64,000 nucleotides of DNA from Myxococcota bacterium (GCA_036012755.1 DASCPX010000193.1:53092-117091), one strand, 5' to 3'; positions 1,399 through 58,929 are shown, counted from the stretch's first letter. Notes: generated by a model not told the origin, from the sequence alone. Program-made: numbers and translations.

Positions 1399-3600
1399 TC
1401 AGCTCGGGAACTCCCAGCCCGTGGCGGTGGTTCCGTCCTCGAAGACCCAGATGCGCTGGTCTGCATCCCAGGGACCGGTGTACTCGACGGTGCCACCACC
1501 GGGGAAGTCCACACTGATGACGTCGACGGTGTCGAGCTCGCCGAGCCCGAAGTGGAGATAGGCGCTGTCCTGGTCGCCCTGTCCCGTGCCGCCCGTGACG
1601 TGACGGACGACCGTGGTGTCACCGCTGCCGACCCGCACCGTGGCCCCGTAGGCGCCCCAGTTCGAGTCGACGCCGCCGATGGCTCGGACCTGCACCCAGT
1701 GGCCTGTCCCCGCCGTGTTCTCCAGCAGGTAGCTGGTGATGGTCAGGTCCTGGTCGCCGTCCTGGTCGAAGTCCGAGACCGCGACGCCCCAGGCGCCCGT
1801 GATGTCCTGGAGCCCGGCCGAGAGCACGTCGAGCTCGAAGGTGCCGTCACCGTTGCCCCAGTAGAAGTCCGTCGGGCGGCCGCTGTAGGTCGCCGAGATC
1901 ACGAGATCGAGGGCGCCGTCCTGGTCGAAGTCGGCGAGCACGGGGACCGAGTGGGTCTCAGAATAGCGCAGCCCCGACTCGTTGGAGTAGGGCGTGTCCC
2001 AGTCGCCCTGCTTGTCGACCCAGGTCCCGTCGCCAGCGTTGATCATCACGCGGGTCTTGTCAGAGAAGGTCCAGAAGCGCGGATGGGCGAGGTTGGCCTC
2101 GATGAGGTCGAAGCTCCCGTCGTTGTCCAGATCGCCCCAGGCCGCGCCGATGCTGTGGCCGTAGTAGGACGAGCCGAACTCCTTCACTCCGGCGAGCTCG
2201 GTCGCCACGCCGGCCTCCTGGACCCAGTCCTCGCCGCCCTCGCCCACGATGTTCCAGTAGAACAGGTTCTTGTGGAGCGTGTAGTCGTTGATGAAGATGT
2301 CGACCCAGCCATCCTGATCAGCGTCGATGGGCGCAGCGCCACGGCCGGAGTAGGGCCAGTCGGAGAAGCCGTACTCCCCGGTGATCTCGGTGAAGGTGCC
2401 GTCGCCGTTGTTCAGCCAGACCTGGTCCTTGTAGAAGTCCCAGTCGGTCCAGCAGATCATGTCCGGCACGTAGACGTCGAGGTCGCCGTCGTTGTCGAGG
2501 TCCCACCACGCCGCGGCTGGTGAGGGCTGGTGGTTCTGCGTCTCATCGGAGGCGCAGAGGTTGTAGTCCTGGATGTCCGTGACCCCCGCGGACTCGGTCA
2601 TGTCGATGAAGGTCCCGGAGCAGTCACCCTTCCAGAGGCTCTCGCCGGCGGTGGTGGACTCGGCGAAGACGAAGAGATCGAGGCAGCCGTCGTTGTCGTA
2701 GTCGCCCCAGACAGCGCCAGATGCCGACACCGAGTCCGACAGGTCCTGCGTGAGCTCGAAGGTGCCGTCGCCGAGGTTCCGGTAGATGCGGGAGTTGGTG
2801 TTGAGATCGTCCCAGCCGTCGTTGTCGAAGTCGCCCCAGGACTGGCGGGAGCCGACCGAGAGCTCGCCGGTGGCGTCGACGAAGACCTTGTCCTCTGGCG
2901 GGTCCTCCAGGTACTCGACGTAGATGCGGATGAGGTAGTCGTACTGGAAGGGGAAGGAATAGCCCGGGTAGTAGGTCGGCGTGCCGAGCTCCGGCGTGTT
3001 GAGCGCCGAGTGGCAGTCACCCCAGGAGCCGCACTCGGTGTTGTTGGCGCCAGCGTCGAACAGCACGGCGAGGTCGGTGTTGTCGGCCCGCTGGTGGGCG
3101 GCGTGGACCAGACCCGGCTGCTCCGTGTCGACCGGCGTGTCGAGGACGTAGGTGGTCCAGCCGCCGTCCTCGATGTCCTCTATGCAGCGGGTGCCCGTCC
3201 ACAGCGGGTCCTCGTGCCAGAAGTCGAAGCCGTTGTGACCGAAGTCCGGGTACACGCCCGCCTCGACCTCTGTGCCCTCGGGCCAGTCGGCAGGCAGGTT
3301 GGTGTAGGCGATCGCAAAGGCGTGGATGCGCGTCGGACGGTCCAGCTCGAAGCGCACGGACTCGTTGAGCACTGTGTCGCGCAGCTCGACGCCGTCCGCC
3401 GTCCAGGTCTGCCCGGTGATGTCGTAGACGCCCACACCGTCGTCCCAGGAGAGCTCCACCCAGCTCGGGTCGATGTCACCGAGCGCCGTGCCGCATCCCT
3501 CTGGGGCGCTGTCAACGCTGTCCAGACCGCTCTCGGGCTCGGGATCCGGGTCGGGCCTGGTGTCGTCAGGGCCATTGCAAGCAAGCACGAAGAGGAGCAC
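1399..3600 (-). CDS. CRTAC1/ASPIC-UnbV family FG-GAP repeat lipoprotein
   Basis: Repeated WGDxDNDGxxDL motifs; C-terminal GATVRV...Q...LHFGLG (ASPIC/UnbV); N-terminus MLLFVLAC; GGAGG upstream of the GTG. Confidence 0.85.
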   Translation of the reverse strand: MLLFVLACNGPDDTRPDPDPEPESGLDSVDSAPEGCGTALGDIDPSWVELSWDDGVGVYDITGQTWTADGVELRDTVLNESVRFELDRPTRIHAFAIAYTNLPADWPEGTEVEAGVYPDFGHNGFDFWHEDPLWTGTRCIEDIEDGGWTTYVLDTPVDTEQPGLVHAAHQRADNTDLAVLFDAGANNTECGSWGDCHSALNTPELGTPTYYPGYSFPFQYDYLIRIYVEYLEDPPEDKVFVDATGELSVGSRQSWGDFDNDGWDDLNTNSRIYRNLGDGTFELTQDLSDSVSASGAVWGDYDNDGCLDLFVFAESTTAGESLWKGDCSGTFIDMTESAGVTDIQDYNLCASDETQNHQPSPAAAWWDLDNDGDLDVYVPDMICWTDWDFYKDQVWLNNGDGTFTEITGEYGFSDWPYSGRGAAPIDADQDGWVDIFINDYTLHKNLFYWNIVGEGGEDWVQEAGVATELAGVKEFGSSYYGHSIGAAWGDLDNDGSFDLIEANLAHPRFWTFSDKTRVMINAGDGTWVDKQGDWDTPYSNESGLRYSETHSVPVLADFDQDGALDLVISATYSGRPTDFYWGNGDGTFELDVLSAGLQDITGAWGVAVSDFDQDGDQDLTITSYLLENTAGTGHWVQVRAIGGVDSNWGAYGATVRVGSGDTTVVRHVTGGTGQGDQDSAYLHFGLGELDTVDVISVDFPGGGTVEYTGPWDADQRIWVFEDGTTATGWEFPS

Positions 3601-3622
3601 GGAGAGACCTCCGAAGAGCGAG

Positions 3623-3628
3623 AACGTA
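3623..3628 (-). promoter_or_regulatory. putative -10 box TACGTT
   Basis: GCTACGTTC 22 nt upstream of GTG 3600; the identical 9-mer precedes the gene starting at 23145. Confidence 0.4.
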
Positions 3629-3658
3629 GCAGGTAGAACGCCCGGCCCGTCAGCTTCG

Positions 3659-5332: not shown

Positions 5333-5874
5333 GCGCCGGACTTGCTCGCCGTCCACTCGCCCCGAGCGGTGCACTCGATGCTGGTGTCGTCGTCGTCGGT
5401 CGAGATGCCGTACCAGGCGAAGCCCTCGATGTACACGCGGCCTCGATACACGTCGTCATAGGCCAGCCCCCCCATGGCGACGTGGATCATGCCGTAGCGG
5501 CTGTCCTGGTATTGGCCCGAGAAGGTGACGCCCCCGGTCGAGGACTCGATGCCCCAGAACTTCACGTCCTCGAGGTCCGGGTCGTCCCAGGTCGCGTAGA
5601 GCTGGTCGGGCCAGCGCCCACCTACCTCCATGGCACCGTCGAAGGGCAGGTCCGAGCCTGCCTTGAAGCCGTCGAGGCCGCAGCTCTCCGTGAACAGGTT
5701 CTTGCCTACGTCCGAGGTCCAGTTCCCGAGCACGTTGGGCACGTTGCCCGTGTCCCCTCCGGGGCCGTCGATGTCTCCGCAGACAGAGGTGCTGTCTTCG
5801 GCGCCCGAGTCGTCGTTGTTTCCGCGACAGGCCACGAGCGAAACGAGCAGCAGGATCAGGGATGGCGTGTTCAT
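5329..5874 (-). CDS. hypothetical lipoprotein
   Basis: MNTPSLILLLVSLVAC lipobox; ATGA overlap with the upstream stop at 5871. Confidence 0.75.
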   Translation of the reverse strand: MNTPSLILLLVSLVACRGNNDDSGAEDSTSVCGDIDGPGGDTGNVPNVLGNWTSDVGKNLFTESCGLDGFKAGSDLPFDGAMEVGGRWPDQLYATWDDPDLEDVKFWGIESSTGGVTFSGQYQDSRYGMIHVAMGGLAYDDVYRGRVYIEGFAWYGISTDDDDTSIECTARGEWTASKSGA

Positions 5875-6515
5875 GAGTCTTCTTCCTCGGTGATGACGAC
5901 CTCGACTCGGCGGTTTATCTCGCGCCCTTCGGCGGTCGCGTTGTCGACGATGGGGCGCCACTCGCCACGACCTGCGGCGGTGAAGCGATGGGGAGAGACC
6001 CCCCAGTCGGAGACGAAGGAGCGCACGACCGCGGCGGCTCGAGCAGCGGAGAGCTCCAGGTTCGACGGGTACTGACGCTTGAGCCGCCCGCTGATGGGGG
6101 TGTCGTCCGTGTGGCCGATGACCAGCACGTGGGTCTCCAGGTGCAGGTTGAGCGCGGTGCTCAAGAGGTCCATCACCATCTCGGACTCCGACCGCAGCCG
6201 GGTCGAGCCCGGGGCGAACATCGTCGCTCCCGGGAGGGTGACGATGGTCTGGTGCAGCCCCCGCTCGATGCCGACCTCCTGACCCGCGAAGACCTGGCGC
6301 AGCTCGGTGTAGATGACCGGAGGGGGAAGGGTCCCGCTGTCGCAGGTCTTCAGCTGCTCGCTCAGGCGGGCGTTCTCCTGCTTGAGCGCGATGACCTCGC
6401 GGTCGAGCTTCTGGACCAGGTCGGTCTCGCCCCGAACGTGGCGCGGGACGCAGCCCGCCACGAGAGCGAGGCTCGCTCCCGCCAGGAATGCTCGTCGATC
6501 GGTGTCGGCGCCCAT
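5871..6515 (-). CDS. OmpA/MotB C-terminal domain lipoprotein with Tat-like signal
   Basis: DRRAFL...LVAGC signal, coiled coil, GHTDD, NLELSAARA, NRRVE motifs. Confidence 0.9.
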   Translation of the reverse strand: MGADTDRRAFLAGASLALVAGCVPRHVRGETDLVQKLDREVIALKQENARLSEQLKTCDSGTLPPPVIYTELRQVFAGQEVGIERGLHQTIVTLPGATMFAPGSTRLRSESEMVMDLLSTALNLHLETHVLVIGHTDDTPISGRLKRQYPSNLELSAARAAAVVRSFVSDWGVSPHRFTAAGRGEWRPIVDNATAEGREINRRVEVVITEEEDS

Positions 6516-9100: not shown

Positions 9101-11080
9101 GTGCTGACGCTCCTTGCCGCGTGCGCTTCCGATCCGCCACCCGTGGCGTTGACCGAGGTGCCCATCGAGCACGCCCCGATCGTGCTCGTCACCCTGGACA
9201 CGACCCGCGCGGACCGGATCGGCGCCTATGGCCATGTGGCGGCTCGGACCCCGAACCTCGACGCGCTGGCCGCCAGGGGGACGCGCTTCTCCTCGGCCTG
9301 GGCGCCCGTACCGCTGACGATCCCCAGCCACTCGACGATCCTCACGGGCCTGCTCCCTCCACGCCACGGCGTCCGGGACAACGGCGACCACCGGCTCAGC
9401 GAGGACGCCACGACCCTCGCCGAGCACTTCGCCGCCGACGGCAGGCGCACCGCCGCGAGCGTGGGCGCCTTCGTGACCCAGTCACACTGGGGCTTCGGCC
9501 AGGGCTTCGATGTCTACGACGAGTCCCTCCACGTGGCCTCCGAGTCCCTGAGCTGGCACGTCGAGCGCCCAGCCAACGAGGTCGTGGCCGCGGCCGACAC
9601 CAGCGCCGACTTCCTCTGGGTGCACCTCTTCGACGCCCACGCCCCCTACCTCCCCGATCCGGCCTTCGAGGACCCCTACGACGCCGAGATCCACCGCCTC
9701 GATGTCGCCCTCGGTGTCCTGTTGTCGACCCTGCCGGCGGACGCCACCGTCGTGGTGGTCGGTGACCACGGAGAGGGCTTCGGCGAAGGCGGAGAGGACG
9801 CCCACGGCCTGCTGTTGGAGGACGGGGTCCTGCGCGTCCCCCTCATCGTCGCGGGGCCGGGCGTGCCCGTCGGCGTCGTCGAGCGACCGGTCTCCCTCGC
9901 CGACATCAGCCCGACGATCCTCCGCCTCGCCGGGCTGCCGGCGCCTGGCGACCTCGATGGCCGCGATCTCTTCGACGAGAGCGAGCGGATCGGCGTCTAC
10001 AGCGAGACCCGCTATGGCCACCACCACTTCGGCTGGACCCCGCTGGAGCGCTTGACGGCAGACAGCTCGAAGCTGGTGCGCGGCGCCCGCCTGGAGGGTG
10101 ACGAGACCCTGCTGGCAGAGCTCGACCGCCTCTCGTCGCTGCCGCCGGCCTTTGCCGCGGCCGAGGCGACCCTGGACCCGAGCACCGTCGAGCAGCTCCA
10201 AGCCCTGGGCTACCTCTCGGAGGGCGGCTCCGGCGCTCACTCGGGCATCGATCCGCGCGACGGCATCGAGCAGATCGCCAAGCTCGCCGCGCTCCGGGAG
10301 CTCCCCCCTGCAGAAGCCCTCGAGGCGATGGCGGTCCTGCTTGCGGAGAACCCCGGCTGGCGTGACCTGCGCATGCGCCGCGGCTTGTCGCTCGCCCGAC
10401 TGGGCAGGACCGACGAGGCCCTGGCCGAGCTCACAGACGCCTACCGGGACGGCCCGGGCAGCACGACCGCCGTCACCATCGGGGAGCTCTGGCTGCGGCA
10501 GGGGGACCCCGCCGAGGCCCTCGGCTGGTTCCTCGAGGCCCTCACCATCGATCCTCGCTCGGCGACCGCTCGAGCGGGCCAGGCACAGTGCCTGGCCATG
10601 TCGGGACAGCTCGACGCGGCTCAGGCCGTGATCGACGAGGGCCTCGCCGAGACCCCGGACCACGCCGACCTGCTGCTCGCCGGAGCTGTCCTCGCTCTCG
10701 CCACGCACCAAGGCGAAGAGGACTGGATCGAGGCGGTCGAGGACATCGTCGCCCGCCGGCCGACCCAGGCCCGGCTGAACCACGTGCTGGGCTCGCTACA
10801 CCTCCGCGCGGGTCACCCCGAGGAGGCCGAGCAGGCATTCGAGCAGGAGCTGCGGATGCAGCCTGGGAACGTCGCCGCTCGCCTCGACCTCGTGCGCCTC
10901 TACCAGGAACAGGGCCGGCTCGTCGACGTGGTGAAGGCCCTGCGACCGCTCGTCGCGCTGCAGCCAGAGGAGCCCGTGTGGCAGGCCATGACCGCCAGCG
11001 CCTACCTGGAAATGGGTCGAGCCGGCCTCGCCAAGGAGCACCTCCTGGCCTGCGCAGGCCATCCGGCCTGCCCCGAGTAG
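9101..11080 (+). CDS. sulfatase-like (alkaline phosphatase superfamily) lipoprotein with C-terminal TPR repeats
   Basis: LDTTRAD, PLTIPSHSTILTG, HLFDAH, GDHGE, then TPR-like helices. The real start is likely GTG 9101 (MLTLLAAC); the upstream part of the 1080-aa ORF is antisense to real genes. Confidence 0.85.
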   Translation: MLTLLAACASDPPPVALTEVPIEHAPIVLVTLDTTRADRIGAYGHVAARTPNLDALAARGTRFSSAWAPVPLTIPSHSTILTGLLPPRHGVRDNGDHRLSEDATTLAEHFAADGRRTAASVGAFVTQSHWGFGQGFDVYDESLHVASESLSWHVERPANEVVAAADTSADFLWVHLFDAHAPYLPDPAFEDPYDAEIHRLDVALGVLLSTLPADATVVVVGDHGEGFGEGGEDAHGLLLEDGVLRVPLIVAGPGVPVGVVERPVSLADISPTILRLAGLPAPGDLDGRDLFDESERIGVYSETRYGHHHFGWTPLERLTADSSKLVRGARLEGDETLLAELDRLSSLPPAFAAAEATLDPSTVEQLQALGYLSEGGSGAHSGIDPRDGIEQIAKLAALRELPPAEALEAMAVLLAENPGWRDLRMRRGLSLARLGRTDEALAELTDAYRDGPGSTTAVTIGELWLRQGDPAEALGWFLEALTIDPRSATARAGQAQCLAMSGQLDAAQAVIDEGLAETPDHADLLLAGAVLALATHQGEEDWIEAVEDIVARRPTQARLNHVLGSLHLRAGHPEEAEQAFEQELRMQPGNVAARLDLVRLYQEQGRLVDVVKALRPLVALQPEEPVWQAMTASAYLEMGRAGLAKEHLLACAGHPACPE

Positions 11081-12287: not shown

Positions 12288-13199
12288 ATGCTGCTGCTCC
12301 TCTTCGCCTGCCCCTCTCCCAAGCCTGACGACTCCCAGGACTCAGCCGTCGAGGCCGACGCGGACACCGACGCCGACACGGACACCGACACGGACTCGGA
12401 CGCCGACGCGGACTCGGACGCCGACACGGACTCGGACACCGACACGGACACCGGGCCCTTCCACGAGACCGACTGCTTCGACGAGGTCGACAACGACGCC
12501 GACGGTCTGCTCGACTGCGAGGACGACGACTGTGTCGATGTCTGCATCGAAGACTGCGACAACGAGATCGACGACGACGGAGACGGAGACATCGACTGCG
12601 ACGACGACGAGTGCGTCGGTGACGAGGCCTGCGACTACCGCGCCTTCGACGTCACGCTGCGCTACGACCTCGAGCGCGTGGTCGCGGTCTGGGGCCCGCT
12701 GGTGCCCTACTACTACGACGAGTACACGATCGGCCTCGGCTACGGGACCTTCAAGATCCAGGGCACGTCACCAGACCCGGACACGGCGGACACCGCGGAC
12801 GAGAGCTACAGCTTCTCCTGTCGTGGGACCCTACGAGTCATATCGGATGGCATCGGCTACGACTCCGGGTACTACAGCGGGTATGCCGGGCTGTCGGAGG
12901 ACACGGGCTACTGCGCCGGCTGCGACGCGATGCTGAACCTCGATCCCGCGCTGGGCATGACGAACTTCATCGGCGACTGCCCGGTCAGCGTCCTGCCCAC
13001 CAGCCAGTGGGCCTTCTTCCAAGGGGAGCGCTCCTTCTGGAACGACGTCAGCGGCAGCTGGCAGGAGCAGTACCGTAGCAAGCTGTCCGGCGTCATCTGG
13101 GACGGCGACCCAGGCTACTACTACTACGGGGAATTCCAATACCCGCAGATGCTCACCGCCCAGACCTGGACCGGGGACTACCTCCCCTCCGATCTCTGA
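12288..13199 (+). CDS. Asp-rich, Cys-repeat lipoprotein
   Basis: MLLLLFAC, (DA/DT/DS)n tether, two C-x-D/N-x-x-D-N/D-D-x-DG-x-x-DC-x-D-x-D/E-C repeats. Confidence 0.8.
   Translation: MLLLLFACPSPKPDDSQDSAVEADADTDADTDTDTDSDADADSDADTDSDTDTDTGPFHETDCFDEVDNDADGLLDCEDDDCVDVCIEDCDNEIDDDGDGDIDCDDDECVGDEACDYRAFDVTLRYDLERVVAVWGPLVPYYYDEYTIGLGYGTFKIQGTSPDPDTADTADESYSFSCRGTLRVISDGIGYDSGYYSGYAGLSEDTGYCAGCDAMLNLDPALGMTNFIGDCPVSVLPTSQWAFFQGERSFWNDVSGSWQEQYRSKLSGVIWDGDPGYYYYGEFQYPQMLTAQTWTGDYLPSDL
12354..12452 (+). repeat. 6-bp coding microsatellite encoding (DA/DT/DS)n
   Basis: gacgcg/gacacc/gacacg/gactcg tandem units. Confidence 0.85.
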
Positions 13200-23287: not shown

Positions 23288-24781
<1,494 letters not shown>

Positions 24782-46732: not shown

Positions 46733-46938
46733 GATCATGGGCTGATTGTAAGTCCGATTTACCGCGGCGATCACGTAGGTGGATCGGATGATCGCGCCGC
46801 AACGGGCCCGCCGGGGTAGGCGGCCCGACGAAGGCGTGTCTGGACACTTCGAGGAGGGCCAACGCCGCCCGGCGGTGTCCGGGGCAAGCGAGGGACGGTC
46901 AACCGAAGTGATCGACGCAATACAATCAGCCCATAATC
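46733..46938. repeat. ~206-bp palindromic MITE-like element / rod-like structured RNA
   Basis: Terminal IR ATGGGCTGATTGTA (46737-46750) / TACAATCAGCCCAT (46921-46934), plus nested inner stems. Confidence 0.7.
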
Positions 46939-49270: not shown

Positions 49271-51543
49271 CGGCCGATCCTACGCGTGACGGGAATCCAG
49301 AGCAGGCCCAGCTGGACGACCCTGATGTCTTTCTTGCGGAGGCGCACCTCGCGCTCCTCTGTGTCTTCGACGGCCGCGAGCTCGACCTCTTCGATGGCGG
49401 CGATGCGATCCTGGAGGTCGATCGCGATGTCGCCGAGCTCAGCCCGAAGCTCCTCGATCTCGTCAGCGACCTTCTGGACACGAGCCTTCGCCTCGCTCGT
49501 GCGGCTGCGCTTGGAGACGACCCGGGAGACGGATCTCCGGCGCGCGCTGAAGATGGACAGAAGGGTCTCCCCCGCGTTGACGGCCTCCTCGGCCCGTCGC
49601 GAAGAGAGCTGCCCTTCCCGCTCGGTGAGGGTGCGCTGGCGCGCCCGGATGCGCTTCTCCACGGCCTCGACCTTGCGGCGGGTGCTCGCCTCGAGCTTCG
49701 CGACCTTGGCGTCGATCCGGTCTCTGATGGCGAGCCTGCAGCGCTCGGCGAACTGCTCGCTGGTCTCGCCCGCCCGCCCGTAGAGCCGCAGGGTCGGGTT
49801 CACGAACATGCCCCGGGTCTCGCTGCGGTAGACGGCCTCGACCAGCGCGGCCCTGGCGGCCTTCCACTCGCGTGCCTCGTCGATCCAGTCGGGGACGCTG
49901 GCGAACAGTCCGTCTTCGGGGGCCTCGACGAGGTCCTCGTCCCGTAGTCGCGGGCGAACGAACTCATCGCTGAAGCCCGCCTCCGGAAGGGGGAAGAGCA
50001 CGCGGTGCTCGCTGTGGTCGAGCACGAAGCCGTGACGGGCCTGCTCGAAGTGGAGCGACAGCTCCGCATGCAGCGCCGGCCGCAGCACGACCCGCCCGTC
50101 CTGGCGAGCCGGTTCGGCGAAGACCGCGAACTCCGGCCCCAGGCGCGCCGAGAACACGACGCGGGGGTCCAGGCACTTCTGGGTCACGGACACTGGCGGA
50201 GGCACCTCGGGCAGCCTCCACTTCTGGTCAGGAAGGGACTCGATGACCGGCGGGACAATGGGCTCGCGAGGGGCGCGTTGGGCCTGGATCTCCCTCTTGG
50301 TGAAGGGCCCGCGGAGGTAGCACATCGCCCAGCGGGTGCCGAAGGTGGCGGTGCCGCCCTTGGCCCTGGCCATCAGGAAGTGGCGCCTCGGGAGCTCACC
50401 GAGATCGACGTCGGGGTCCGGGAGGCCCTTCAAGAGCCTGCGCCGGTCCTGCTCGGTCCGAAGACGCCCTACGAACCACAGCCCGGCGTTGGACAGGGCC
50501 TTGTAGTCGAGGTCGACCGGGTTCTGCGTGGCGAGCAGCACCCCGAGGCCCACCGCCCGGGCCTGCTTCATCAGCGTCAGCACAGGGCCCTTCGTCGGGG
50601 GCGTCCTGGGGTGCGGCGGCAGGTAGCCGGCGGCCTCGTCGAGGAAGACCAGGGCGCGCAGGCGCTCGGTTCCGGGCTGGGTCCGGGTCCAGGCGACGAC
50701 GCGGCCCAACAGCAGTGACACGAAGAACTGCCGCTCTGACTCGGAGAGGTGGGACAGGCAGAAGACGTGGACGCCGCCGGAGAGCATGTCCTCGACGTCG
50801 AGGGGGGAGCCGTGGGTCCACGAGGCGAAGCTCGGCGAGGCGATGACGCCGTTGAGCAGCATCGCCAGGTCCATGCGGTCGTCCGGCGGGTAGAAGCGGT
50901 CGGTCGGGAAGACACCGACCTTCTCGAAGGGCGGATCGACGATGTGGGTGATCAGCGCCTCGATGTCGAGGTCCTCGCCCTGCTGCCACGCCTGCTCGAT
51001 GATCGTCGAGAGCACGATGTGGGCCGGATCACGGACTGGATCAGCGGTGCGCCCGACGAGACCGAGCAGACCGCTGACCGTGTCGCCGACGAGTCCGCGG
51101 AGGGCCTCGCCGTCCGAGACGTCCGAGGGCGCCGCCAGCGCGGCGAGCACATCGACGGGCTCGCCGGCCTCGCTGCCCGGCGTGTAGAGCGTCAGGTCGA
51201 GTTTGTCCCGAAGGTCCAGGAGGTCCTCCGAGCCGAGGTCGAAGCTCGCGAGCCCCTCTCTCCACCGAGTGGCCAGCTCCGCGGGATCCTGTCCGTCGGC
51301 CCAGGGCGCGAAGTCCTCTGGCGCCAGCTCCGGGAAGACCAGCGAGAGGTTGCCCAGGTCGCCCTTGGGGTCGATCGCGATGATGGGGACGCCCGCGCGC
51401 ACCATCTCCTCGAGCAAGACGAGGCAGAGCCCGGTCTTGCCGCTGCCCGTCATGCCGACGACCACGCCGTGGGTGCGGAAGTCCTCGGGATCGACCTCGA
51501 GCGGGCCTTCGTCCGAAGCGCCGATGCAGAGTCTCTTCTTCAT
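49267..51543 (-). CDS. HerA/FtsK-like ATPase (DUF87/DUF853) with C-terminal coiled coil
   Basis: GMTGSGKT, IDPKGD, FLDEA, ATQNPVDLDYK. Confidence 0.9.
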   Translation of the reverse strand: MKKRLCIGASDEGPLEVDPEDFRTHGVVVGMTGSGKTGLCLVLLEEMVRAGVPIIAIDPKGDLGNLSLVFPELAPEDFAPWADGQDPAELATRWREGLASFDLGSEDLLDLRDKLDLTLYTPGSEAGEPVDVLAALAAPSDVSDGEALRGLVGDTVSGLLGLVGRTADPVRDPAHIVLSTIIEQAWQQGEDLDIEALITHIVDPPFEKVGVFPTDRFYPPDDRMDLAMLLNGVIASPSFASWTHGSPLDVEDMLSGGVHVFCLSHLSESERQFFVSLLLGRVVAWTRTQPGTERLRALVFLDEAAGYLPPHPRTPPTKGPVLTLMKQARAVGLGVLLATQNPVDLDYKALSNAGLWFVGRLRTEQDRRRLLKGLPDPDVDLGELPRRHFLMARAKGGTATFGTRWAMCYLRGPFTKREIQAQRAPREPIVPPVIESLPDQKWRLPEVPPPVSVTQKCLDPRVVFSARLGPEFAVFAEPARQDGRVVLRPALHAELSLHFEQARHGFVLDHSEHRVLFPLPEAGFSDEFVRPRLRDEDLVEAPEDGLFASVPDWIDEAREWKAARAALVEAVYRSETRGMFVNPTLRLYGRAGETSEQFAERCRLAIRDRIDAKVAKLEASTRRKVEAVEKRIRARQRTLTEREGQLSSRRAEEAVNAGETLLSIFSARRRSVSRVVSKRSRTSEAKARVQKVADEIEELRAELGDIAIDLQDRIAAIEEVELAAVEDTEEREVRLRKKDIRVVQLGLLWIPVTRRIGR

Positions 51544-51549
51544 GGGGGC

Positions 51550-51555
51550 ATCCTA
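51550..51555 (-). promoter_or_regulatory. putative -10 box TAGGAT, leaderless-type, overlapping TAG stop
   Basis: 6 nt upstream of ATG 51543. Confidence 0.5.
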
Positions 51556-52191
51556 GATCATGCCTTGGAGGCCCCAGTGCGGAGCGAGGATCAGCCCCGA
51601 GAGGTCGTGCTCCGATCCGAAGGCATCTACGGAGCCCCGAGCGTGGAGCACCGTGAGTTCGGCGCCGAAGTGGACCCAGCGCCAGCCGATCGCCCCCCCG
51701 ACGAAGCCCCCCGCGCAGGTCATCGTGCCAGTGCTGCGCTCCTGCCCGATCCCCAGGTCGCTCCCGTCGAGCTCGAAGACATAGGGAGAGACCTGGGTCT
51801 TGGCGCCCCACCAGAGCCGACCCCACTCGTCGAACTCGCGGCCGACCGTCACCGACGCGGTCGTGTCGAGGCGCCGTAGCTTGCTCACGCGGACCGCCTT
51901 GTTGGCCCAGTCCAGCACCGAGAACCAGGCCCCGCCGCTGCCGTAGCCAGGCCCCGTCAGCGCGATCGCCGACAGCCCGCCGACGAGCACCTCCCGCTCT
52001 TCCGTGGAGAGCGAGTCGTCCTCTTCGAGCTCGTCGATGAGCGTCCTGGCCGGATCGATCGCTTCTCTCACCCCCGCGGTGGGCACGACCACCGAGTTGA
52101 TCTGGGAGACGTGGACCTCGCCGCCACGAAGTACGCGCGCGGACCGCATCTCGGCGAGGTTGATGGCGCAGCCCAGCGTCCACAGGAGCAT
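51553..52191 (-). CDS. hypothetical lipoprotein, beta-strand-rich C-terminus
   Basis: MLLWTLGC; start overlaps the upstream stop (TGATG). Confidence 0.7.
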   Translation of the reverse strand: MLLWTLGCAINLAEMRSARVLRGGEVHVSQINSVVVPTAGVREAIDPARTLIDELEEDDSLSTEEREVLVGGLSAIALTGPGYGSGGAWFSVLDWANKAVRVSKLRRLDTTASVTVGREFDEWGRLWWGAKTQVSPYVFELDGSDLGIGQERSTGTMTCAGGFVGGAIGWRWVHFGAELTVLHARGSVDAFGSEHDLSGLILAPHWGLQGMI

Positions 52192-52658
52192 CAGATGTGC
52201 TCACCCATCGGGGCCTCCGAGGGGGCCTCGAGCACCACTGGCACGGTGAGAGCCTGGCCGTCCACGCGCAGCTCGAGGTGGAGGGTGAGCGCCGAGTGCC
52301 GACGCAGATCCCTGCCGTACTGGTGGACGCGGACCATGGCCCGAGCGTCGCCGCCGGGTGGCAGCGCGAGCACCTCGTCCTTGGGCTGGAAGCCGAGGAT
52401 CAGTCGCGCGAAGTCGGTGCCCTTCCCGTCACCGACGAAGGCTGGCCACGCCTCGCCATCGGGCAGGGACAGCCTGCTCTGTCGCAGCTCGACCTCGAAG
52501 GGCTCGTCGGTCTGGTTCACGATGGAGAGCTCGATGCTGGCGTCCTTCTGTTGGACGCGGGTCTCCGCCACGCGCACGACGATCGGATCCGCCGGCGCCG
52601 GGTCCGCGGAGAACTCCCACGTTCGCTTCATCGCCAGGCAGGACAGGAGCCAGATCAT
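52191..52658 (-). CDS. hypothetical lipoprotein, Ig-like strand pattern
   Basis: MIWLLSC; IELSIVNQTDEPFEV. Confidence 0.7.
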   Translation of the reverse strand: MIWLLSCLAMKRTWEFSADPAPADPIVVRVAETRVQQKDASIELSIVNQTDEPFEVELRQSRLSLPDGEAWPAFVGDGKGTDFARLILGFQPKDEVLALPPGGDARAMVRVHQYGRDLRRHSALTLHLELRVDGQALTVPVVLEAPSEAPMGEHI

Positions 52659-52723: not shown

Positions 52724-53084
52724 ATGGCGCTTCGACTCTTGGTCATCGACGACGAAGCGCCGGTCCTCCGGTCCATCGCCCGGCTCTTCCAGCGAGAGCA
52801 CGAGGTCGTGACGGCGTCCGACGCCATCAAGGGACTGGAGATCGCGCTGAACGAGGACTTCGACGGCATCCTGGTCGACATGCGGATGCCGAAGATGGGG
52901 GGGCCGGGAGTTCGCGGAGAAGCTGATCGCGGCCCGTCCCGAGACCCAGCCAAAGGTCGTCCTGCTCACGGGCGGGGACGCCACCGACTCGACCGCCCGC
53001 CCGGCGCCGCTGATCTGGAAGCCCCTGACACCAGAGGACGTGAAGCGTCTCACCTGGTGGTGGGACGGTCAGAGGTCTCAGTAG
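52724..53084 (+). pseudogene. single-domain response regulator frameshifted at a G7 run
   Basis: IDDE and VDMRMP in the first frame; removing one G at 52897-52903 continues GGREFAEKL...VVLLTG...IWKPL to TAG 53082-53084. Confidence 0.8.
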
Positions 53085-54895
53085 CAGAGGCCGAACCAGG
53101 GCTCTCCGCCGTCGGTGTATTCCTGGTGGCAGACGCCGTTGCCGGGTGAACAAGCGTCTCCGGGGGTGCAGAGCTCGTAGCAGCGCCAGGTGAACCAGCT
53201 GCAGAAGAGCCCCTTCTCGCAGAGCGAGGTCGAGTAGTCGCAGGTCTCGAAGGCCCCCCGGTCTCCGGAGGGCCAGCAATACGAAGTGTCGACGTCGGCG
53301 GGCACGCAGTTGTAGCCGTAGTAGTCGGGCTCGCAGTCCTGGTCCGACCAGGAGCACGAGTCCTCGTGGCAGACACCCTCGGTGGTCGTGGAGAGCCCGT
53401 CCTGCGGCATGCACCAGGTGTCCTCGTCGCACCAGCCGGTGGTGGCGTAGGGCTCGTCACAGGCCTCTGCGCAGACATGGTCCACGAGGTCGCAGACGCC
53501 GCTGGAGCAGTCCCGGTCATCGAGGCAGAAGGGCCCGCCGGCGGACTGCCAGACGTCAGCCCCGACGACCTCGCCACCCTGGTACACGAGCACCAGCGTC
53601 TGGGTGTTGGAGATGTCCTCGAGGGGATCGGCCGCGAGCACGACGAGGTCGGCCCGATAGCCGGCGGCCACCTGGCCCAGGTCATCCCAGCCCCAGGCCT
53701 GGGCGGCGCCGTCGGTCGCGGCGACGAGCACGTCGAGTTCGTCCATGCCGGCCTCGACAAGCGCCTCGAGCTCCCAGTGCAGGGCCACCCCGTGGGGCAC
53801 GAAGTAGTAGCCGGCGTCGGAGCCGGGCAACAGGGGCGCCTCGGCGGCGACCAGCGTGGCCAGGTTCTGGGCGTGCATGACCGTCCAGGCCTCGTCCGCG
53901 TCGGCCCAGTCCTGGTAGCTGGCGGGGTGGTCCTGGACCCACCGCCAGGTCTCCAGCGTGGCCTCTTCCACGTGCTGGTAGCCCCCGTCGTCGAGGTCTG
54001 CGGAGAGGGTCCTCGGGAGGCCCTCCGAGGCTCCTCGTGTGCTGGCGATCAGCGAGGCCCCAGCTGCCTGATCGGCGGTGATGACATCGGCGAAGGGTAC
54101 GTGCGCGATGCGCGGCGCGCCGTTGGCGATGGCGTCCTCAAGGTCCTCGCCAGAGGCCACGTGGACGAGGCTGGGGGCCACCGAGGTGATGTCCGCGAGG
54201 TCCCCGAGGTCCAGCCTCGGCCAGCTCCGGTCTATGCCCGTCTCGGTGAGGGCCACCTTGACGAAGTCGGCGCCGCCGTCCATGAGTCGGGTCGCGTCTG
54301 CGTCTGCGTCGTCGACGAAGGCGCAGATGTCCGAGGGCGCCAGCTCGCAGGGGTGGCTGCCGTCGGTGGTGAGGAAGGGCCCCGCGGCGAGCATGCGAGG
54401 GCCGCTGAGCTCGCCGGCGTTCACGCGGTCGCGAAGGGACCAGGTCCACTCGGGGCCGCCGGCGTCCACGACGGCCGTGACCCCCCAGCTGAGGGTGGCG
54501 GAGAGGTCCTCTTCCACCGTCGGGCCCACGTCCCAGGCGGCGCCGCCGTAGGAGAGGTGCACGTGGGAGTCGATGAGCCCGGGGATCACCGTCAGGCCGG
54601 TGAGCGGGACCACGGTGGCGTCCCCGGTCCAGCTCTCGGTCGGGACCACGTCCCAGATGAGATCGCCCACCAGCACGATGTCCATGTCCTCGCGCACGCC
54701 CAGGACATCGACGACGCGCACCCCGCCGAGCACCGTCGAGCCCTCTGGGACCTCGACCGGCTCCGCCTCGGAGTCAGGGGAGGAGTCGGAGTCCCGGCTC
54801 TCGTGGACGACCTCGCTGTCATCCGGGGCGGAGCTGTCGTCCGTCGGGCTCGGCGAGTCATCGCTCGGCGAGGTGCATGCGAAGAGGAGCCACAT
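53078..54895 (-). CDS. amidohydrolase family lipoprotein with Cys-rich C-terminal domain
   Basis: PGLIDSHVH, K, H, H, GSDAG, G.RADLVVL; start MWLLFAC at 54895; 20 Cys in the last ~150 aa. Confidence 0.9.
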   Translation of the reverse strand: MWLLFACTSPSDDSPSPTDDSSAPDDSEVVHESRDSDSSPDSEAEPVEVPEGSTVLGGVRVVDVLGVREDMDIVLVGDLIWDVVPTESWTGDATVVPLTGLTVIPGLIDSHVHLSYGGAAWDVGPTVEEDLSATLSWGVTAVVDAGGPEWTWSLRDRVNAGELSGPRMLAAGPFLTTDGSHPCELAPSDICAFVDDADADATRLMDGGADFVKVALTETGIDRSWPRLDLGDLADITSVAPSLVHVASGEDLEDAIANGAPRIAHVPFADVITADQAAGASLIASTRGASEGLPRTLSADLDDGGYQHVEEATLETWRWVQDHPASYQDWADADEAWTVMHAQNLATLVAAEAPLLPGSDAGYYFVPHGVALHWELEALVEAGMDELDVLVAATDGAAQAWGWDDLGQVAAGYRADLVVLAADPLEDISNTQTLVLVYQGGEVVGADVWQSAGGPFCLDDRDCSSGVCDLVDHVCAEACDEPYATTGWCDEDTWCMPQDGLSTTTEGVCHEDSCSWSDQDCEPDYYGYNCVPADVDTSYCWPSGDRGAFETCDYSTSLCEKGLFCSWFTWRCYELCTPGDACSPGNGVCHQEYTDGGEPWFGLCY

Positions 54896-54902
54896 CGGCC
54901 AC

Positions 54903-54908: not shown

Positions 54909-54956
54909 CTTGGCATCGGAGGGAGCGTGCATTAGTTGGCCCGCACAGGAGGGCCC

Positions 54957-55175: not shown

Positions 55176-55240
55176 GGAGCCGCAGCCGACGCTGACCCCG
55201 CGGGCGATGCAGCCACACTCCCAGCCGCACTCGTCAACCT

Positions 55241-55271
55241 TGCATTTCTACCATCGTGTAGTAGAAATGCA
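55241..55271. promoter_or_regulatory. perfect 11-bp inverted repeat operator upstream of the ATPase gene
   Basis: TGCATTTCTAC-N9-GTAGAAATGCA, overlapping a TTGCAT -35-like box, 3 nt before ATG 55275. Confidence 0.65.
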
Positions 55272-55274
55272 TGG

Positions 55275-56441: not shown

Positions 56442-56472
56442 ACCGCTGGACTCGATCGTGAGGGCGCTCCAC

Positions 56473-57579: not shown

Positions 57580-57661
57580 GCGCGCAATCATGGCGGACCT
57601 CGACGTCTACCTGGAGCTCTTCCTCGACCAGTTTCCGGACGCACCTCGATCCCAGCCATGA
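57580..57661 (+). pseudogene. orphan 3' gene remnant abutting the IS end
   Basis: RAIMADLDVYLELFLDQFPDAPRSQP* with host-like codons; its TGA overlaps the next ATG. Confidence 0.5.
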
Positions 57662-58929
57662 TCCTTCTCTTGTTTGCATGCGCCGACGACGAACCGGCCG
57701 TTCCGGGCCCCGGCGAGCACCTCTGGCTCGACGACGAGGGCCGCCACGTCATGCACCGGGGCATGAACGTCAACAACACGGCAAAAGGCAGCGAGGACAA
57801 CCTCCCCGGCCTCGAGGACCACGAGATCGACCTCCTCGTGACCCACGGCGTCACCCTCGTGCGCTACCTCGTCTTCTGGCACGCCCTGGAGCCGGTCGCC
57901 GGCGAGTACGACGAGGCCTACGTGCAGCGAGTGGCAGACGACATCGGCCGCTTCACCGACCGGGGACTCTCCGTCCTCGTCGACATGCACCAGGACGTCT
58001 ACGGCGAGGGCTTCGGACACGCGGGCCTGCCCGCCTGGACCTGCGACCAGGCGCTCTACGACAGCTACGTGCCCCCCACCGGCTCCTGGTACCTGGCCTA
58101 CGCCCGGGTCGAGGTCCAGGAGTGCTTCGACCGCTTCTGGGCCAGCGAGGAGCTCCAGCAGGCCAACGCCGACGCATGGGCCGAGCTCTCGGTGGTTCTG
58201 GCAGAGGACCCCGGCGTCGTGGCCTTCGAGGTCATGAACGAGCCCTTCTGGGGAACGATAGAGGTCGAGCAGTTCGAGGGCGAGGTCCTCCCGGCCTTCT
58301 ACGCCACGGTGGCGGATGCCCTGCCCGCGGATCGGCCGGTCGTCGTCGAGCCGAGCGTGAGCGCGAACGTGCTCAAGGAGACCTCGCTCGCGCTGCCCGA
58401 CGGAGACTGGATCCTGGGGCCGCACTACTACCCGCTCTACGCAGAGGAGGGGCTGGGCTTCGACGGGGACTTCGACGAGGAGGAGGCGGACCTGCGCTGG
58501 TGGGCAACAGAGGCAGAAGAGCGAGACATCCCCTTGCTGATCGGGGAGTTCGGCATCTTCTCCGACTTCGGCAACGAGGCCGACTACGTGCGCTCGCTGG
58601 TGGACGTCATCGCCGAAGAGGGAGGCTCCACCGCCTACTGGTCCTACGACCGCAACGACAGCTGGGCGCCGCTGACCTCTGAGGGCGAGGCGGGAGCCGG
58701 CCTGGAGGGCTACGACCGCCCCTGGCTCCACCGCACGCCCGGGCCCTTCGTGGTCGACACGCTGGGCTGGCGGATCACCGGGACCTCGGTGCAGGCGGAC
58801 ATCGAGGTGGTCGTCCCCGGGACCTGCGAGCCCGATGGGGACTGGGACCCCATCCGGCGCGTGCTGTCGATCCCGGCCCCGGCCCCGGGAGAGGAGCTGG
58901 TGGTGCTCGTGGACGGCTGCAGCCCCTGA
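57658..58929 (+). CDS. GH5 glycoside hydrolase lipoprotein, endoglycoceramidase-like
   Basis: RGMN, DMHQD, MNEP acid/base, HYY, IGEFG nucleophile; MILLLFAC. Confidence 0.88.
   Translation: MILLLFACADDEPAVPGPGEHLWLDDEGRHVMHRGMNVNNTAKGSEDNLPGLEDHEIDLLVTHGVTLVRYLVFWHALEPVAGEYDEAYVQRVADDIGRFTDRGLSVLVDMHQDVYGEGFGHAGLPAWTCDQALYDSYVPPTGSWYLAYARVEVQECFDRFWASEELQQANADAWAELSVVLAEDPGVVAFEVMNEPFWGTIEVEQFEGEVLPAFYATVADALPADRPVVVEPSVSANVLKETSLALPDGDWILGPHYYPLYAEEGLGFDGDFDEEEADLRWWATEAEERDIPLLIGEFGIFSDFGNEADYVRSLVDVIAEEGGSTAYWSYDRNDSWAPLTSEGEAGAGLEGYDRPWLHRTPGPFVVDTLGWRITGTSVQADIEVVVPGTCEPDGDWDPIRRVLSIPAPAPGEELVVLVDGCSP

What the first reader, a model, noticed from the sequence alone, without database searches (positions are those of the whole stretch)
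1399..58929. Ultra-short, uncharged lipoprotein signal peptides across the window: candidate non-canonical export system
Seen: exported-type proteins start MLLFVLAC (3600), MLTLLAAC (9101), MLLLLFAC (12288), MLLLALVAC (22555), MILLLAC (31286), MLISLIFAC (35826), MIIGLLAC (39208), MLLALLAC (41229), MTLLLPILAC (42137), MIWLFSGAC (43390), MGLLLTLAC (44552), MLLWTLGC (52191), MIWLLSC (52658), MWLLFAC (54895) and MILLLFAC (57658). Cys is at residue 7-10 and no Lys/Arg precedes it. For eleven of these the ORF track shows no earlier in-frame start, and several starts are pinned by stop/start overlaps, an RBS or a -10 box, so they are not simple mis-calls. The cargo (subtilase, GH5, ASST, SGNH, FG-GAP, disulfide-rich domains) is typically extracytoplasmic. 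Established: Sec/SPII signals normally have a basic n-region and a longer h-region, usually about 15-30 aa before the lipobox Cys. Inference: this lineage uses a minimal signal, implying altered SecA/SRP/YidC/Lgt/LspA recognition, a lipidated but uncleaved N-terminus, or a separate pathway. A canonical signal (61955) and Tat signals (6515, 34456) coexist in the same window.
Basis: partly seen in the sequence, partly recalled or inferred. Interest (0 to 1): 0.88.

Follow-up and report, generated by a model that had tools for sequence, protein, structure and literature searches.

The report
Ultra-short uncharged lipoprotein export signals
In this uncultured bacterium roughly one gene in ten encodes an exported-type protein whose lipid-anchoring signal is only Met plus about six greasy residues with no positive charge, far below the textbook minimum, and it appears to be a shrunken ordinary signal rather than a new export system.

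Summary
Observation confirmed and genome-wide. All 15 claimed starts exist and 11 of 15 have no earlier in-frame start. In the whole genome, 602 of 4,471 coding frames have only a short uncharged leader plus lipobox Cys, 407 of them at the first possible start.

Start mis-calling is excluded. In-frame stops upstream of 694 short starts are as frequent as out-of-frame stops, and Shine-Dalgarno sites sit at the right spacing.

The Cys aligns with the lipobox Cys of canonical signals in homologs. Position -1 is Ala/Gly/Ser in 91% of leaders.

The trait is graded across the order: long with Arg, then about 12 residues with one Arg, then uncharged, then 7-8 residues in this genus. Type-I signals are shortened too.

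I found no trait-linked change in SecY, SecA, Ffh, YidC, LspA or Lgt.

Best reading: derived minimal Sec/signal-peptidase-II signals, compensated by Leu density, using ordinary machinery. A separate pathway is not supported.

This scan flagged the same phenomenon before: twice in other windows of this genome and once in another genome. Six literature searches found no description.

The parts
1399..3600 (-). FG-GAP/ASPIC protein, leader MLLFVLAC (GTG start)
   Evidence: No upstream in-frame start in 33 codons; GGAG upstream; Pfam FG-GAP_3, UnbV_ASPIC
9101..11080 (+). Sulfatase + TPR protein, leader MLTLLAAC (GTG start); start not pinned
   Evidence: 7 upstream in-frame starts, the nearest 75 codons away; GC3 in frame falls upstream; Pfam Sulfatase, TPR
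12288..13199 (+). Unknown protein with acidic DTDADTD tether, leader MLLLLFAC
   Evidence: In-frame TAG 3 codons upstream; no Pfam family
21974..22555 (-). Unknown 193-aa protein, leader MLLLALVAC
   Evidence: One upstream ATG 57 codons away; GC3 falls upstream
23288..24781 (+).
   Evidence: First start in frame, GGAG upstream; ortholog series across the order
31286..32272 (+). SMP-30/gluconolactonase-like protein, leader MILLLAC
   Evidence: ATGA overlap with the stop of upstream ORF 29205..31289; Pfam SGL
35826..36971 (+). Subtilase (Peptidase_S8), leader MLISLIFAC
   Evidence: In-frame TGA 7 codons upstream; Pfam S8 at 6.9e-53; same-genus homologs start VSVILLLVAC and VLLFALAC
36968..39208 (-). 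Unknown 746-aa protein, leader MIIGLLAC (GTG start)
   Evidence: GTGA overlap with the stop of the upstream gene 39205..41229; no upstream in-frame start
39205..41229 (-). Metalloenzyme/phosphodiesterase/sulfatase-like protein, leader MLLALLAC
   Evidence: TGATG overlap with the upstream gene's stop; no start codon in 341 upstream in-frame codons; Pfam
41229..42137 (-). Unknown 302-aa protein, leader MTLLLPILAC
   Evidence: ATGA overlap with the stop of the ASST gene 42134..43390; GC3 falls upstream
42134..43390 (-). Arylsulfotransferase (ASST), leader MIWLFSGAC (TTG start)
   Evidence: In-frame TAG 6 codons upstream; GGAGG 5 nt upstream; Pfam Arylsulfotrans
43437..44552 (-). GDSL/SGNH hydrolase, leader MGLLLTLAC
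   Evidence: No upstream start in 15 codons; GAGGAGG...GGAGGA upstream; Pfam Lipase_GDSL_2
46937..49270 (-). Extra case: 777-aa protein, leader MISLTLLFAFSC
   Evidence: In-frame stop 3 codons upstream; ATGA overlap with upstream gene 49267..51543
51553..52191 (-). Unknown 212-aa protein, leader MLLWTLGC
   Evidence: In-frame TGA 3 codons upstream; TGATG overlap with the upstream gene's stop
52191..52658 (-). Unknown 155-aa protein, leader MIWLLSC
   Evidence: In-frame TAG 3 codons upstream, GGAG upstream
53078..54895 (-). Amidohydrolase, leader MWLLFAC, or MPSRLWPMWLLFAC from an ATG 7 codons upstream
   Evidence: In-frame stop 12 codons upstream, so at most 13 residues before the Cys; Pfam Amidohydro_1
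57658..58929 (+). GH5 cellulase-family protein, leader MILLLFAC
   Evidence: No upstream in-frame start in 58 codons; Pfam Cellulase
5871..6515 (-). Contrast: Tat-type signal with lipobox (MGADTDRRAFLAGASLALVAGC)
32312..34456 (-). Contrast: Tat-type signal ([29 protein letters not shown])
60840..61955 (-). Contrast: charged N-terminus followed by a hydrophobic stretch (MRTDTTFFNLAIGAVVFS)

Best explanation
These are genuine, evolutionarily shrunken Sec / signal-peptidase-II signal peptides. Translation starts at the short start. The leader is fMet, then about 4-8 mostly Leu residues, then the lipobox L-L-A-C.

I infer that it is still taken through the single ordinary SecYEG translocon, lipidated on the Cys by Lgt, cut by LspA, N-acylated by Lnt and sorted by Lol.

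The loss of the basic n-region and of about half the h-region is offset by a much denser hydrophobic core. It is probably also offset by the strongly acidic, Pro/Ser-rich early mature region, which keeps an N-to-C charge dipole and can be driven outward by the membrane potential.

The state arose stepwise within one order of uncultured bacteria and is most extreme in this genus. A minority of lipoproteins in the same cell keep textbook signals.

Shown here: the starts, the genome-wide scale, the Cys homology with canonical lipoboxes, the -1 rule, the gradient across relatives, the presence of the machinery and its lack of trait-linked change. Inferred: actual export, lipidation, cleavage and the compensation mechanism.
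For: **Starts**
- 407 of 4,471 coding frames carry the short leader at the first possible start, and 602 have no canonical alternative.
- In the independently defined set of 444, 186 have an in-frame stop fewer than 8 codons upstream and 233 fewer than 12.
- Upstream of 694 short starts, a stop lies within 12 codons in 34.0% in frame versus 25.8% and 27.1% in the other frames. This matches true canonical starts (23.5% versus 25.9% and 18.5%). At the positive control, 7 codons before a canonical Cys, the rate is 0% within 8 codons.
- GGAG peaks 9-10 nt upstream, at 9.7% and 7.9% of starts at those two positions, versus about 0.3-2% per position at internal ATG/GTG.

**Lipobox identity**
- Position -1 is A/G/S in 91.4% of 444 leaders that were selected without any -1 rule, versus 16% A/G/S in the rest of the leader. 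Leu dominates -2 and -3.

**Homology**
- Of 31 homolog pairs, 12 subjects have canonical SPII (G003, G006, G020, G028), 12 have short leaders (G002, G005, G008, G012) and 7 got no lipobox call. The Cys and the following residues align.
- For one window ortholog: 3 of 3 f5 loci have 18-22 residues with Arg; 11 of 12 readable f7 loci carry one Arg in the first 6 residues; 9 of 9 f1 loci are uncharged.

**Cargo**
- The window cargo is extracytoplasmic in type: S8, GH5, sulfatase, ASST, GDSL, FG-GAP.

**Compensation**
- Core hydropathy is 2.92 versus 2.30 (p=3.6e-10) and Leu is 55% versus 34%.
- Mature residues +2..+21 have net charge -3.07, against a background of -0.54.

**Machinery**
- Present: 2 LspA and 5 Lgt, 1 Lnt above cut-off, 1 SecY and 2 LolA, and single SecA, Ffh and YidC.
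- No trait-linked paralog was found.
Against: - There is no experimental evidence of export, lipidation or cleavage, and no RNA or proteome data.
- A leader of 6-8 residues is shorter than anything I know to work with Sec or LspA, and summed hydropathy is lower than in canonical leaders (17.5 versus 26.9).
- The acidic mature region does not differ significantly between the short and canonical classes (-3.07 versus -2.40, p=0.15). It therefore cannot by itself explain why short leaders work.
- Two compositionally different classes coexist in one genome (median 8 versus 18 residues), with partly different cargo. That would also fit two routes.
- I compared residues only in SecY. SecA, Ffh, YidC, SecE/G, Lnt and Lol were at most counted.
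- Gene calling used my own GC3-based script. It mis-called one real window gene (35826) and fails on low-GC relatives. Samples of relatives are small, at 25-90 genes each.
Confidence: 0.6

Rival explanations
1. Two routes in one cell. Short Leu-rich uncharged leaders are handled by a different targeting or insertion route from the canonical leaders, for example strictly co-translational SRP/YidC-assisted insertion, or a factor not yet recognised. Lgt/LspA processing would follow either way.
For: - G000 holds both classes with different composition (median 8 versus 18 residues; Leu 55% versus 34%).
- The canonical set is enriched in small periplasmic housekeeping types: solute-binding proteins, cytochrome c, thioredoxin/AhpC, PPIase and M48. 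Pal also keeps a canonical signal.
- The short set in the window is mostly hydrolases on acidic tethers.
- A divergent tandem lgt copy is found only in genus g1.
- One SecY column, equivalent to E. coli I290, is Leu in all 9 trait-high sequences and Ile/Ala in all 12 trait-low sequences.
Against: - SecY, SecA, Ffh and YidC are single-copy in trait-high and trait-low genomes.
- The g1-only lgt copy is not found in the trait-high genera g4 and g7.
- lspA and lgt copy numbers do not track the trait.
- The cargo split is not clean: a subtilase occurs in both classes, and 20 of the 40 canonical proteins scanned have no Pfam family.
- Across relatives the leaders form a continuum, not two discrete kinds.
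Confidence: 0.17
2. The leader is not cleaved. The short hydrophobic N-terminus plus a lipidated or unlipidated Cys stays on the protein as a membrane anchor.
For: A 6-8-residue leader may be too short to span from the cytoplasm to the LspA active site. No data here show cleavage.
Against: - Position -1 is Ala/Gly/Ser in 91.4% of leaders versus 16% elsewhere in the leader. That is the signature of a peptidase site, not of an anchor.
- Both LspA copies keep their catalytic motifs.
- Homologs with canonical, cleavable signals share the same Cys and the same following residues.
Confidence: 0.1
3. Artefact: the true starts lie upstream (non-standard start codons, frameshifts, assembly errors), or the motif occurs by chance on cytoplasmic proteins.
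For: - 4 of the 15 window starts are not pinned by the absence of an upstream start.
- The genome is a 250-contig assembly of high GC, where spurious open frames are common.
Against: - In-frame stops are as common as out-of-frame stops upstream of 694 short starts.
- 186 of 444 have a stop fewer than 8 codons upstream.
- Lys/Arg is not enriched in frame upstream (13.4% versus 15.6% and 15.2%).
- A shifted-frame Met-plus-basic peptide is open in only 53 of 444 per frame (no control was run for this figure).
- Shine-Dalgarno sites sit at the right spacing.
- The same short starts occur in independent assemblies of relatives.
- The rate is 13.5% of genes here versus 2.4% in trait-low relatives scored by the same script.
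Confidence: 0.04

Closest known systems
Canonical bacterial lipoprotein (Sec / signal peptidase II) signal peptides, E. coli Lpp type
   Same: N-terminal position, a hydrophobic stretch ending in a lipobox with invariant Cys and a small residue at -1. Lgt, LspA, Lnt and LolA are present. The Cys is homologous to that of canonical signals in relatives.
   Different: There is no positively charged n-region, and only about 4-8 hydrophobic residues instead of a full h-region. The Cys sits at residue 7-10 rather than about 15-30. Position -2 is mostly Leu rather than Ala/Ser. The review PMC9360617 (passages read) defines the lipoprotein signal as having a positively charged n-region, an h-region and Leu-Ala/Ser-Gly/Ala-Cys. 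The PROSITE PS51257-type rule (recalled, not checked in a call) requires a basic residue near the N-terminus and a Cys much further in, so it would miss these.
Engineered E. coli signal peptides in which hydrophobicity compensates for lost charge or length (polymeric Leu/Ala cores; work of Kendall and of Mizushima in the early 1990s; recalled, not seen in any call)
   Same: The principle fits: a denser Leu core can offset a missing basic n-region or a shorter core. Here the short leaders are 55% Leu in the core versus 34% in canonical ones.
   Different: Those are laboratory mutants of single proteins that keep longer cores. Here the state is natural, covers about 9-13% of a proteome, and goes to 5-6 hydrophobic residues with no charge.
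Type IV prepilin (class III) leaders
   Same: A very short leader of a few residues before the cleavage site.
   Different: Prepilin leaders are basic and are cut before the hydrophobic segment by a different peptidase on the cytoplasmic side (general knowledge; the review PMC9360617 mentions the class). Here the hydrophobic segment is itself the leader and ends in a lipobox.
Earlier notes of this scan on the same phenomenon (e1-7686119 and e1-7819839 in this genome; e1-2195045 in another genome)
   Same: Same observation and the same main reading.
   Different: Those are unchecked AI notes on other DNA. I re-derived the observation independently.

Membership tests
Sec/SPase II lipoprotein signal peptide | Lipobox with invariant Cys at +1 and a small residue (Gly/Ala/Ser) at -1 | tested here: met
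   -1 is A 288, G 64, S 54 of 444 leaders chosen without a -1 rule (91.4%). -3 is Leu in 247.
Sec/SPase II lipoprotein signal peptide | Ala/Ser (small or neutral) at -2 | tested here: not met
   -2 is Leu in 268 of 444, Phe in 39 and Ile in 33. Ala (22) and Ser (24) together make 46. The canonical definition is from PMC9360617.
Sec/SPase II lipoprotein signal peptide | Positively charged n-region | tested here: not met
   No Lys/Arg precedes the Cys in the 15 window leaders or, by the classifier's definition, in the 602 short-only genes. In-frame upstream sequence is not coding.
Sec/SPase II lipoprotein signal peptide | h-region long enough for a membrane-embedded helix; Cys usually at about residue 15-30 | tested here: not met
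   Median 8 residues before the Cys. The distribution peaks at 7 (181 genes), followed by 8 (115) and 6 (102).
Sec/SPase II lipoprotein signal peptide | Homology of the Cys with the lipobox Cys of accepted lipoproteins | tested here: met
   12 of 31 homolog pairs have a canonical SPII subject with aligned Cys and flanks. An ortholog series across 30 loci shows the same.
Sec/SPase II lipoprotein signal peptide | Processing enzymes Lgt, LspA and Lnt encoded, with catalytic motifs | tested here: met
   Both LspA copies keep GNxxDR and FNxAD.
Sec/SPase II lipoprotein signal peptide | Actual diacylglyceryl transfer and cleavage before the Cys | not testable with these tools
   Needs lipoproteomics or reporter assays.
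Separate or novel export pathway | A dedicated component present in trait-high genomes and missing from trait-low ones | tested here: not met
   None was found among SecY, SecA, Ffh, YidC, LspA and Lgt. Other components and unknown genes were not screened.

The most novel reading that the evidence does not exclude
The minimal leaders define a second mode of membrane entry, not just a weak Sec signal. An uncharged formyl-Met-poly-Leu hexa- or heptapeptide would partition wholly into the bilayer. The acidic tether would then be pulled across by the membrane potential, with SRP/YidC or an unrecognised factor and without a cytoplasmically anchored n-region. This would present the Cys to Lgt/LspA from the outer leaflet. 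Under this reading the cell runs two lipoprotein entry routes side by side, and the textbook three-part signal is not a requirement of lipoprotein biogenesis.
Probability: 0.17. Interest if true: 0.92.

Novelty: new variant of a known kind. Interest (0 to 1): 0.78.

Why it matters
If these 7-8-residue uncharged leaders really drive export and lipidation, they set a natural lower limit for a Sec/lipoprotein signal well below the textbook form. They also come with a ready-made evolutionary series (long with Arg, then 12 residues with one Arg, then uncharged, then 7-8) for working out which features are dispensable.

In practice, rule-based and probably trained predictors will miss most of the envelope proteome of this lineage, about one gene in ten. 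Metabolic and ecological readings of these metagenome-assembled genomes would then under-count exported hydrolases.

Such leaders would also be the shortest known secretion and lipid-anchoring tags for protein engineering.

Tried and rejected
- **RNA evidence.** One search failed on a length slip of one base and was corrected. No RNA holder was listed.
- **Hidden n-region in another frame.** An open Met-plus-basic peptide occurs in 53 of 444 genes per shifted frame, so this got no support. No control was run for that figure.
- **Copy number of lspA and lgt against the trait.** No tracking.
- **Lgt paralog tree.** The first attempt contained a 15-row artefact from wrong-strand translation. The corrected tree shows no clade restricted to trait-high genomes.
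- **SecY prl-type changes.** The residues aligning with E. coli F286, I408 and I278 are conserved. Only a conservative Ile-to-Leu column separates high from low genomes. That these are prlA4 and pore-ring sites is recalled, not taken from a call.
- **Acidic mature region as a class-specific compensator.** Acidic in both classes, with a non-significant difference (p=0.15).
- **Generic classifier for type-I signals.** Too noisy, since it picks up Rossmann-type cytoplasmic N-termini. I relied on BamD and TonB-dependent receptors instead.
- **LptE as a housekeeping lipoprotein test.** The Pfam model matched nothing in 5 genomes.
- **BamD.** Not a lipoprotein in this order.
- **Naming the organism.** The nearest named record is only 'MAG: Proteobacteria bacterium', and more distant hits are Deltaproteobacteria/Myxococcota MAGs. 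No cultured relative was identified.
- **Low-GC relatives.** G029 and G010 could not be scored by my GC3-based caller.
- **Literature.** Six full-text searches listed nothing that describes such leaders. I saw listings and abstracts only, apart from passages of PMC9360617.

Full report

Yes. All 15 N-termini are present at the stated coordinates and strands, with Cys at residue 7-10 and no Lys/Arg before it.

In-frame stops lie only 3 codons upstream of 12288, 52191 and 52658, 6 upstream of 43390 and 7 upstream of 35826. Starts at 31286, 39208, 41229, 42137 and 52191 overlap the stop codon of a real upstream gene.

The four unpinned starts are 9101, 22555, 42137 and 54895.
- For 9101, 22555 and 42137, third-position GC in the gene's frame collapses just upstream.
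- For 54895 an ATG 7 codons upstream would give MPSRLWPMWLLFAC. That is still only 13 residues, with one Arg.

The window contains two more such genes, at 23288 and 49270. The cargo is of extracytoplasmic type: subtilase, GH5, sulfatase, arylsulfotransferase, GDSL hydrolase, FG-GAP/ASPIC, amidohydrolase and SMP-30-like. Six of the 15 have no Pfam family.

**2. Scale**

The window is G000:C193:53092-117091, in a 6.73-Mb, 250-contig assembly of 68% GC. I called coding frames by codon-position GC.
- 444 of 4,587 frames begin, at the most upstream possible start, with Met, 4-10 uncharged residues, then Cys. The start codons are ATG 275, GTG 152 and TTG 17.
- A stricter classifier with a lipobox rule finds 602 of 4,471 genes that have only a short option, 407 of them at the first start.
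- 182 genes have a canonical option, and 91 of these also have a short one.
- The number of residues before the Cys peaks at 7 (181 genes), then 8 (115), 6 (102) and 9 (96).

Limits of this caller: it is home-made, it mis-called one real gene in the window (the subtilase at 35826 lost to an antisense frame), and it fails on low-GC relatives.

**3. Are the starts right?**

Three population tests say yes.
- **(a) Upstream stops.** Upstream of 694 short starts, a stop codon lies within 12 codons in 34.0% in frame, versus 25.8% and 27.1% in the other two frames. So nothing keeps the frame open. Genuine canonical starts look the same (23.5% versus 25.9% and 18.5%). At the positive control, a point 7 codons before the Cys of canonical signals, there are no in-frame stops within 8 codons.
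- **(b) Upstream charge.** Lys/Arg is not enriched in frame upstream (13.4% versus 15.6% and 15.2%). A Met-plus-basic peptide in a shifted frame is open in only 53 of 444 genes per frame (no control was run for that figure).
- **(c) Ribosome-binding sites.** GGAG peaks 9-10 nt before the short starts, at 9.7% and 7.9% of starts at those two positions, against about 0.3-2% per position at internal ATG/GTG. The fraction with a Shine-Dalgarno core is 0.39 versus 0.16.

**4. Are they lipoprotein signals?**

In the 444 leaders, which were chosen with no rule for position -1, that position is Ala/Gly/Ser in 91.4%, against 16% in the rest of the leader. Positions -2 and -3 are mostly Leu. This is what a signal peptidase II site requires, apart from Leu at -2.

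I compared the 407 short-leader proteins with genes in sampled stretches of relatives and found 31 homolog pairs (at least 35% identity and 70% coverage; some subjects recur as paralogs). The subject has a canonical signal in 12 pairs, a short leader in 12 and no lipobox call in 7. The Cys and the following residues align. One example is G000 MTLLLLASFAC|RNKD against G003 MRRLALAALLLSAAGC|RNTD.

The window gene at 23288 gives a clean series over 30 loci of the order:

| Group | Loci | Leader |
|---|---|---|
| f5 | 3 of 3 | 18-22 residues with Arg (MRLAPSFLPLHPFLLSLFLLSAC) |
| f7 | 11 of 12 readable | one Arg within the first 6 residues; 11-13 residues where the Cys is in view (MRLVLVLALATGC) |
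| f1 | 9 of 9 | uncharged (g7 MLGSTLSLALLLALGAC; g4 MSASLLFLLSLSAC; g1 MPTLIISLSLLAC) |

Three f7 loci were unreadable, two at contig ends and one with the start out of view. In several others the Cys lay outside the printed part.

**5. Distribution**

Sampling 20-140 kb from 22 relatives with the same script gave the following short-only counts.

| Trait level | Genome (group): short-only of genes |
|---|---|
| High | G002 (g1) 12 of 82; G012 (g4) 14 of 90; G005 (g4) 5 of 59; G008 (g7) 8 of 58 |
| Intermediate | G007 (g6) 6 of 79; G004 (g3) 4 of 63; G021 (f4) 4 of 63; G024 (f7) 5 of 63 |
| Low | G003 2 of 75; G006 3 of 73; G013 1 of 36; G009 1 of 34; G020 1 of 90; G026 1 of 55; G028 1 of 78; G022 0 of 27; G019 1 of 33; G025 0 of 25; G030 2 of 62 |

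The sample from G023 (16 genes, none short) was too small to class, and two low-GC genomes could not be scored.

Pooled with the slightly stricter count, the rates are 37 of 286 (high), 19 of 284 (intermediate) and 12 of 500 (low).

On a SecY tree, g1 and g4 form a clade, while g7 is sister to the trait-low g5/g9 group. The extreme state therefore arose more than once or was lost in some lineages.

**6. Not only lipoproteins**

- BamD has a type-I signal in this order. It reads MFALLLTLSLPAVA|AKN in G000, against MRILGYFSLIACLFLGLSSPAEA in G002 and MRLALLIATLCGPAFA in G012.
- A TonB-dependent receptor of G000 has only 40 codons between the upstream stop and the Plug domain. Its signal is M-LYILATSAIA|EDE.
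- G012 receptors read MLSLLPLLLA|QEP and MSPISPILLLSLALA|QED, while G028 receptors keep Arg-rich n-regions.

These are few cases, and my generic type-I classifier was too noisy to give a rate.

**7. Two classes in one genome**

79 G000 genes keep a credible textbook signal. Examples are MKKILLIAGGTLALTAC, and Pal with MRITTLLFLTLTMAATC.

I scanned 40 of the 79 against Pfam. Twenty have no family. The rest include two AhpC/thioredoxin proteins, a PPIase, two solute-binding proteins, a cytochrome c, an M48 peptidase, TAtT and VWA/YfbK. There is also one subtilase, so the functional split is suggestive, not clean.

Short leaders have a denser core: hydropathy 2.92 versus 2.30 (p=3.6e-10) and Leu 55% versus 34%. 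Their summed hydropathy is lower, at 17.5 versus 26.9.

Early mature regions are very acidic in both classes: net -3.07 and -2.40 over 20 residues, against a background of -0.54. The difference between classes is not significant (p=0.15).

**8. Machinery**

G000 has two tandem lspA and two tandem lgt genes at C59:100000-102591, plus three more lgt copies. It also has one Lnt above cut-off, one SecY and two LolA, and single SecA, Ffh and YidC, as do G002, G012, G003 and G028.

- Across 31 genomes, lspA is found 0-2 times (1-2 in all but one genome) and lgt 3-6 times, with no relation to the trait. The tandem lspA/lgt arrangement also occurs in trait-low genomes.
- Both LspA copies keep the two Asp motifs.
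- A corrected tree of 67 Lgt sequences shows four orthogroups, each with high, intermediate and low genomes. It also shows one divergent tandem copy found only in g1 and not in g4 or g7 (one search was flawed by wrong-strand translation).
- SecY keeps the residues that align with E. coli F286, I408 and I278. That these are prlA4 and pore-ring sites is recalled, not taken from a call.
- The only SecY column that separates 9 trait-high from 12 trait-low sequences is Leu versus Ile/Ala, at the equivalent of E. coli I290 in TM7. This is a conservative change and only a weak lead.

**9. Reading**

The simplest account is that these are ordinary lipoprotein and type-I signals shrunk step by step. 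They remain functional through Leu density and an acidic tether, and they use the standard pathway (confidence 0.6).

A second entry route for the short class is not excluded (0.17). An uncleaved anchor is disfavoured by the -1 rule (0.10). Artefact is close to excluded (0.04).

**10. Known or new?**

The review PMC9360617 (passages read) defines lipoprotein signals by a positively charged n-region, an h-region and Leu-Ala/Ser-Gly/Ala-Cys. These leaders fail the first two criteria and depart at -2.

Six full-text searches listed no description of such leaders. I saw listings and abstracts only, and subscription journals are not covered.

This scan has noted the phenomenon before, on other windows of this genome (e1-7686119, e1-7819839) and on another genome (e1-2195045). 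The labels 'Myxococcota' and 'marine' come from those notes and from titles of distant hits. I did not verify them.

I file this as a new variant of a known kind.

Noticed in passing
G000:C59:100000-102591 (locus L003), outside the window: A tightly packed lspA-lspA-lgt-lgt operon. Similar tandem arrangements occur in G002, G005, G012, G007, G022 and G026. Every genome of the order searched has 3-6 lgt homologs, an unusually high number.
   Followed up: partly
Genome-wide; window examples at 12288, 52191, 52658 and 49270: In 104 of 444 short-leader genes the nearest in-frame stop is 3-4 codons upstream. Base composition upstream of the start suggests a T-A-G-G-(A/G) consensus at -12 to -8. The stop may often be part of a TAGGAG/TGAGG-type ribosome-binding site.
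   Followed up: partly
Loci L094-L098 (BamD homologs of G002, G012, G003, G000, G028): BamD (YfiO family) has a type-I signal with no lipobox Cys at the cleavage site in all 5 genomes examined, unlike the lipoprotein BamD of E. coli (the E. coli state is recalled).
   Followed up: no
G000, G002, G012, G003, G028 (whole genomes): The Pfam LptE model (PF04390) found no match in any of the 5 genomes, while it rang in 3 control genomes. Either LptE is very divergent here or it is replaced.
   Followed up: no
window 5871-6515 (-) and 32312-34456 (-): Twin-arginine-type signals that end in a lipobox-like Cys (…DRRAFLAGASLALVAGC; …[21 protein letters not shown]). These are candidate Tat-exported lipoproteins that keep full-length signals in the same genome.
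   Followed up: no
window 12288-13199 (+) and many G000 lipoproteins; loci L328-L355: Long Asp-Thr/Asp-Ala/Asp-Ser repeat tethers (DTDADTDTDSD...) directly after the lipobox, often followed by DDDGDG calcium-binding-type repeats. Their length varies strongly between orthologs.
   Followed up: no
G000 whole genome: Lipobox-bearing genes make up about 15% of coding frames (602 short-only plus about 80 canonical, of 4,471), against about 7% (37 of 500) in pooled trait-low relatives. The lineage seems unusually rich in lipoproteins.
   Followed up: partly
SecY, locus L091, residue 288 (equivalent to E. coli I290, TM7): Leu in all 9 trait-high sequences and in 5 of 6 intermediate ones; Ile or Ala in all 12 trait-low ones. 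On the SecY tree this needs at least two changes.
   Followed up: partly
G000:C127:60944-61267 (locus L250) and G002:C255 (L259): The TonB-dependent receptor Plug domain lies far inside a long open frame, behind an internal signal-like stretch (…LLPLLLLAMLVPGLARA|DED).
   Followed up: no
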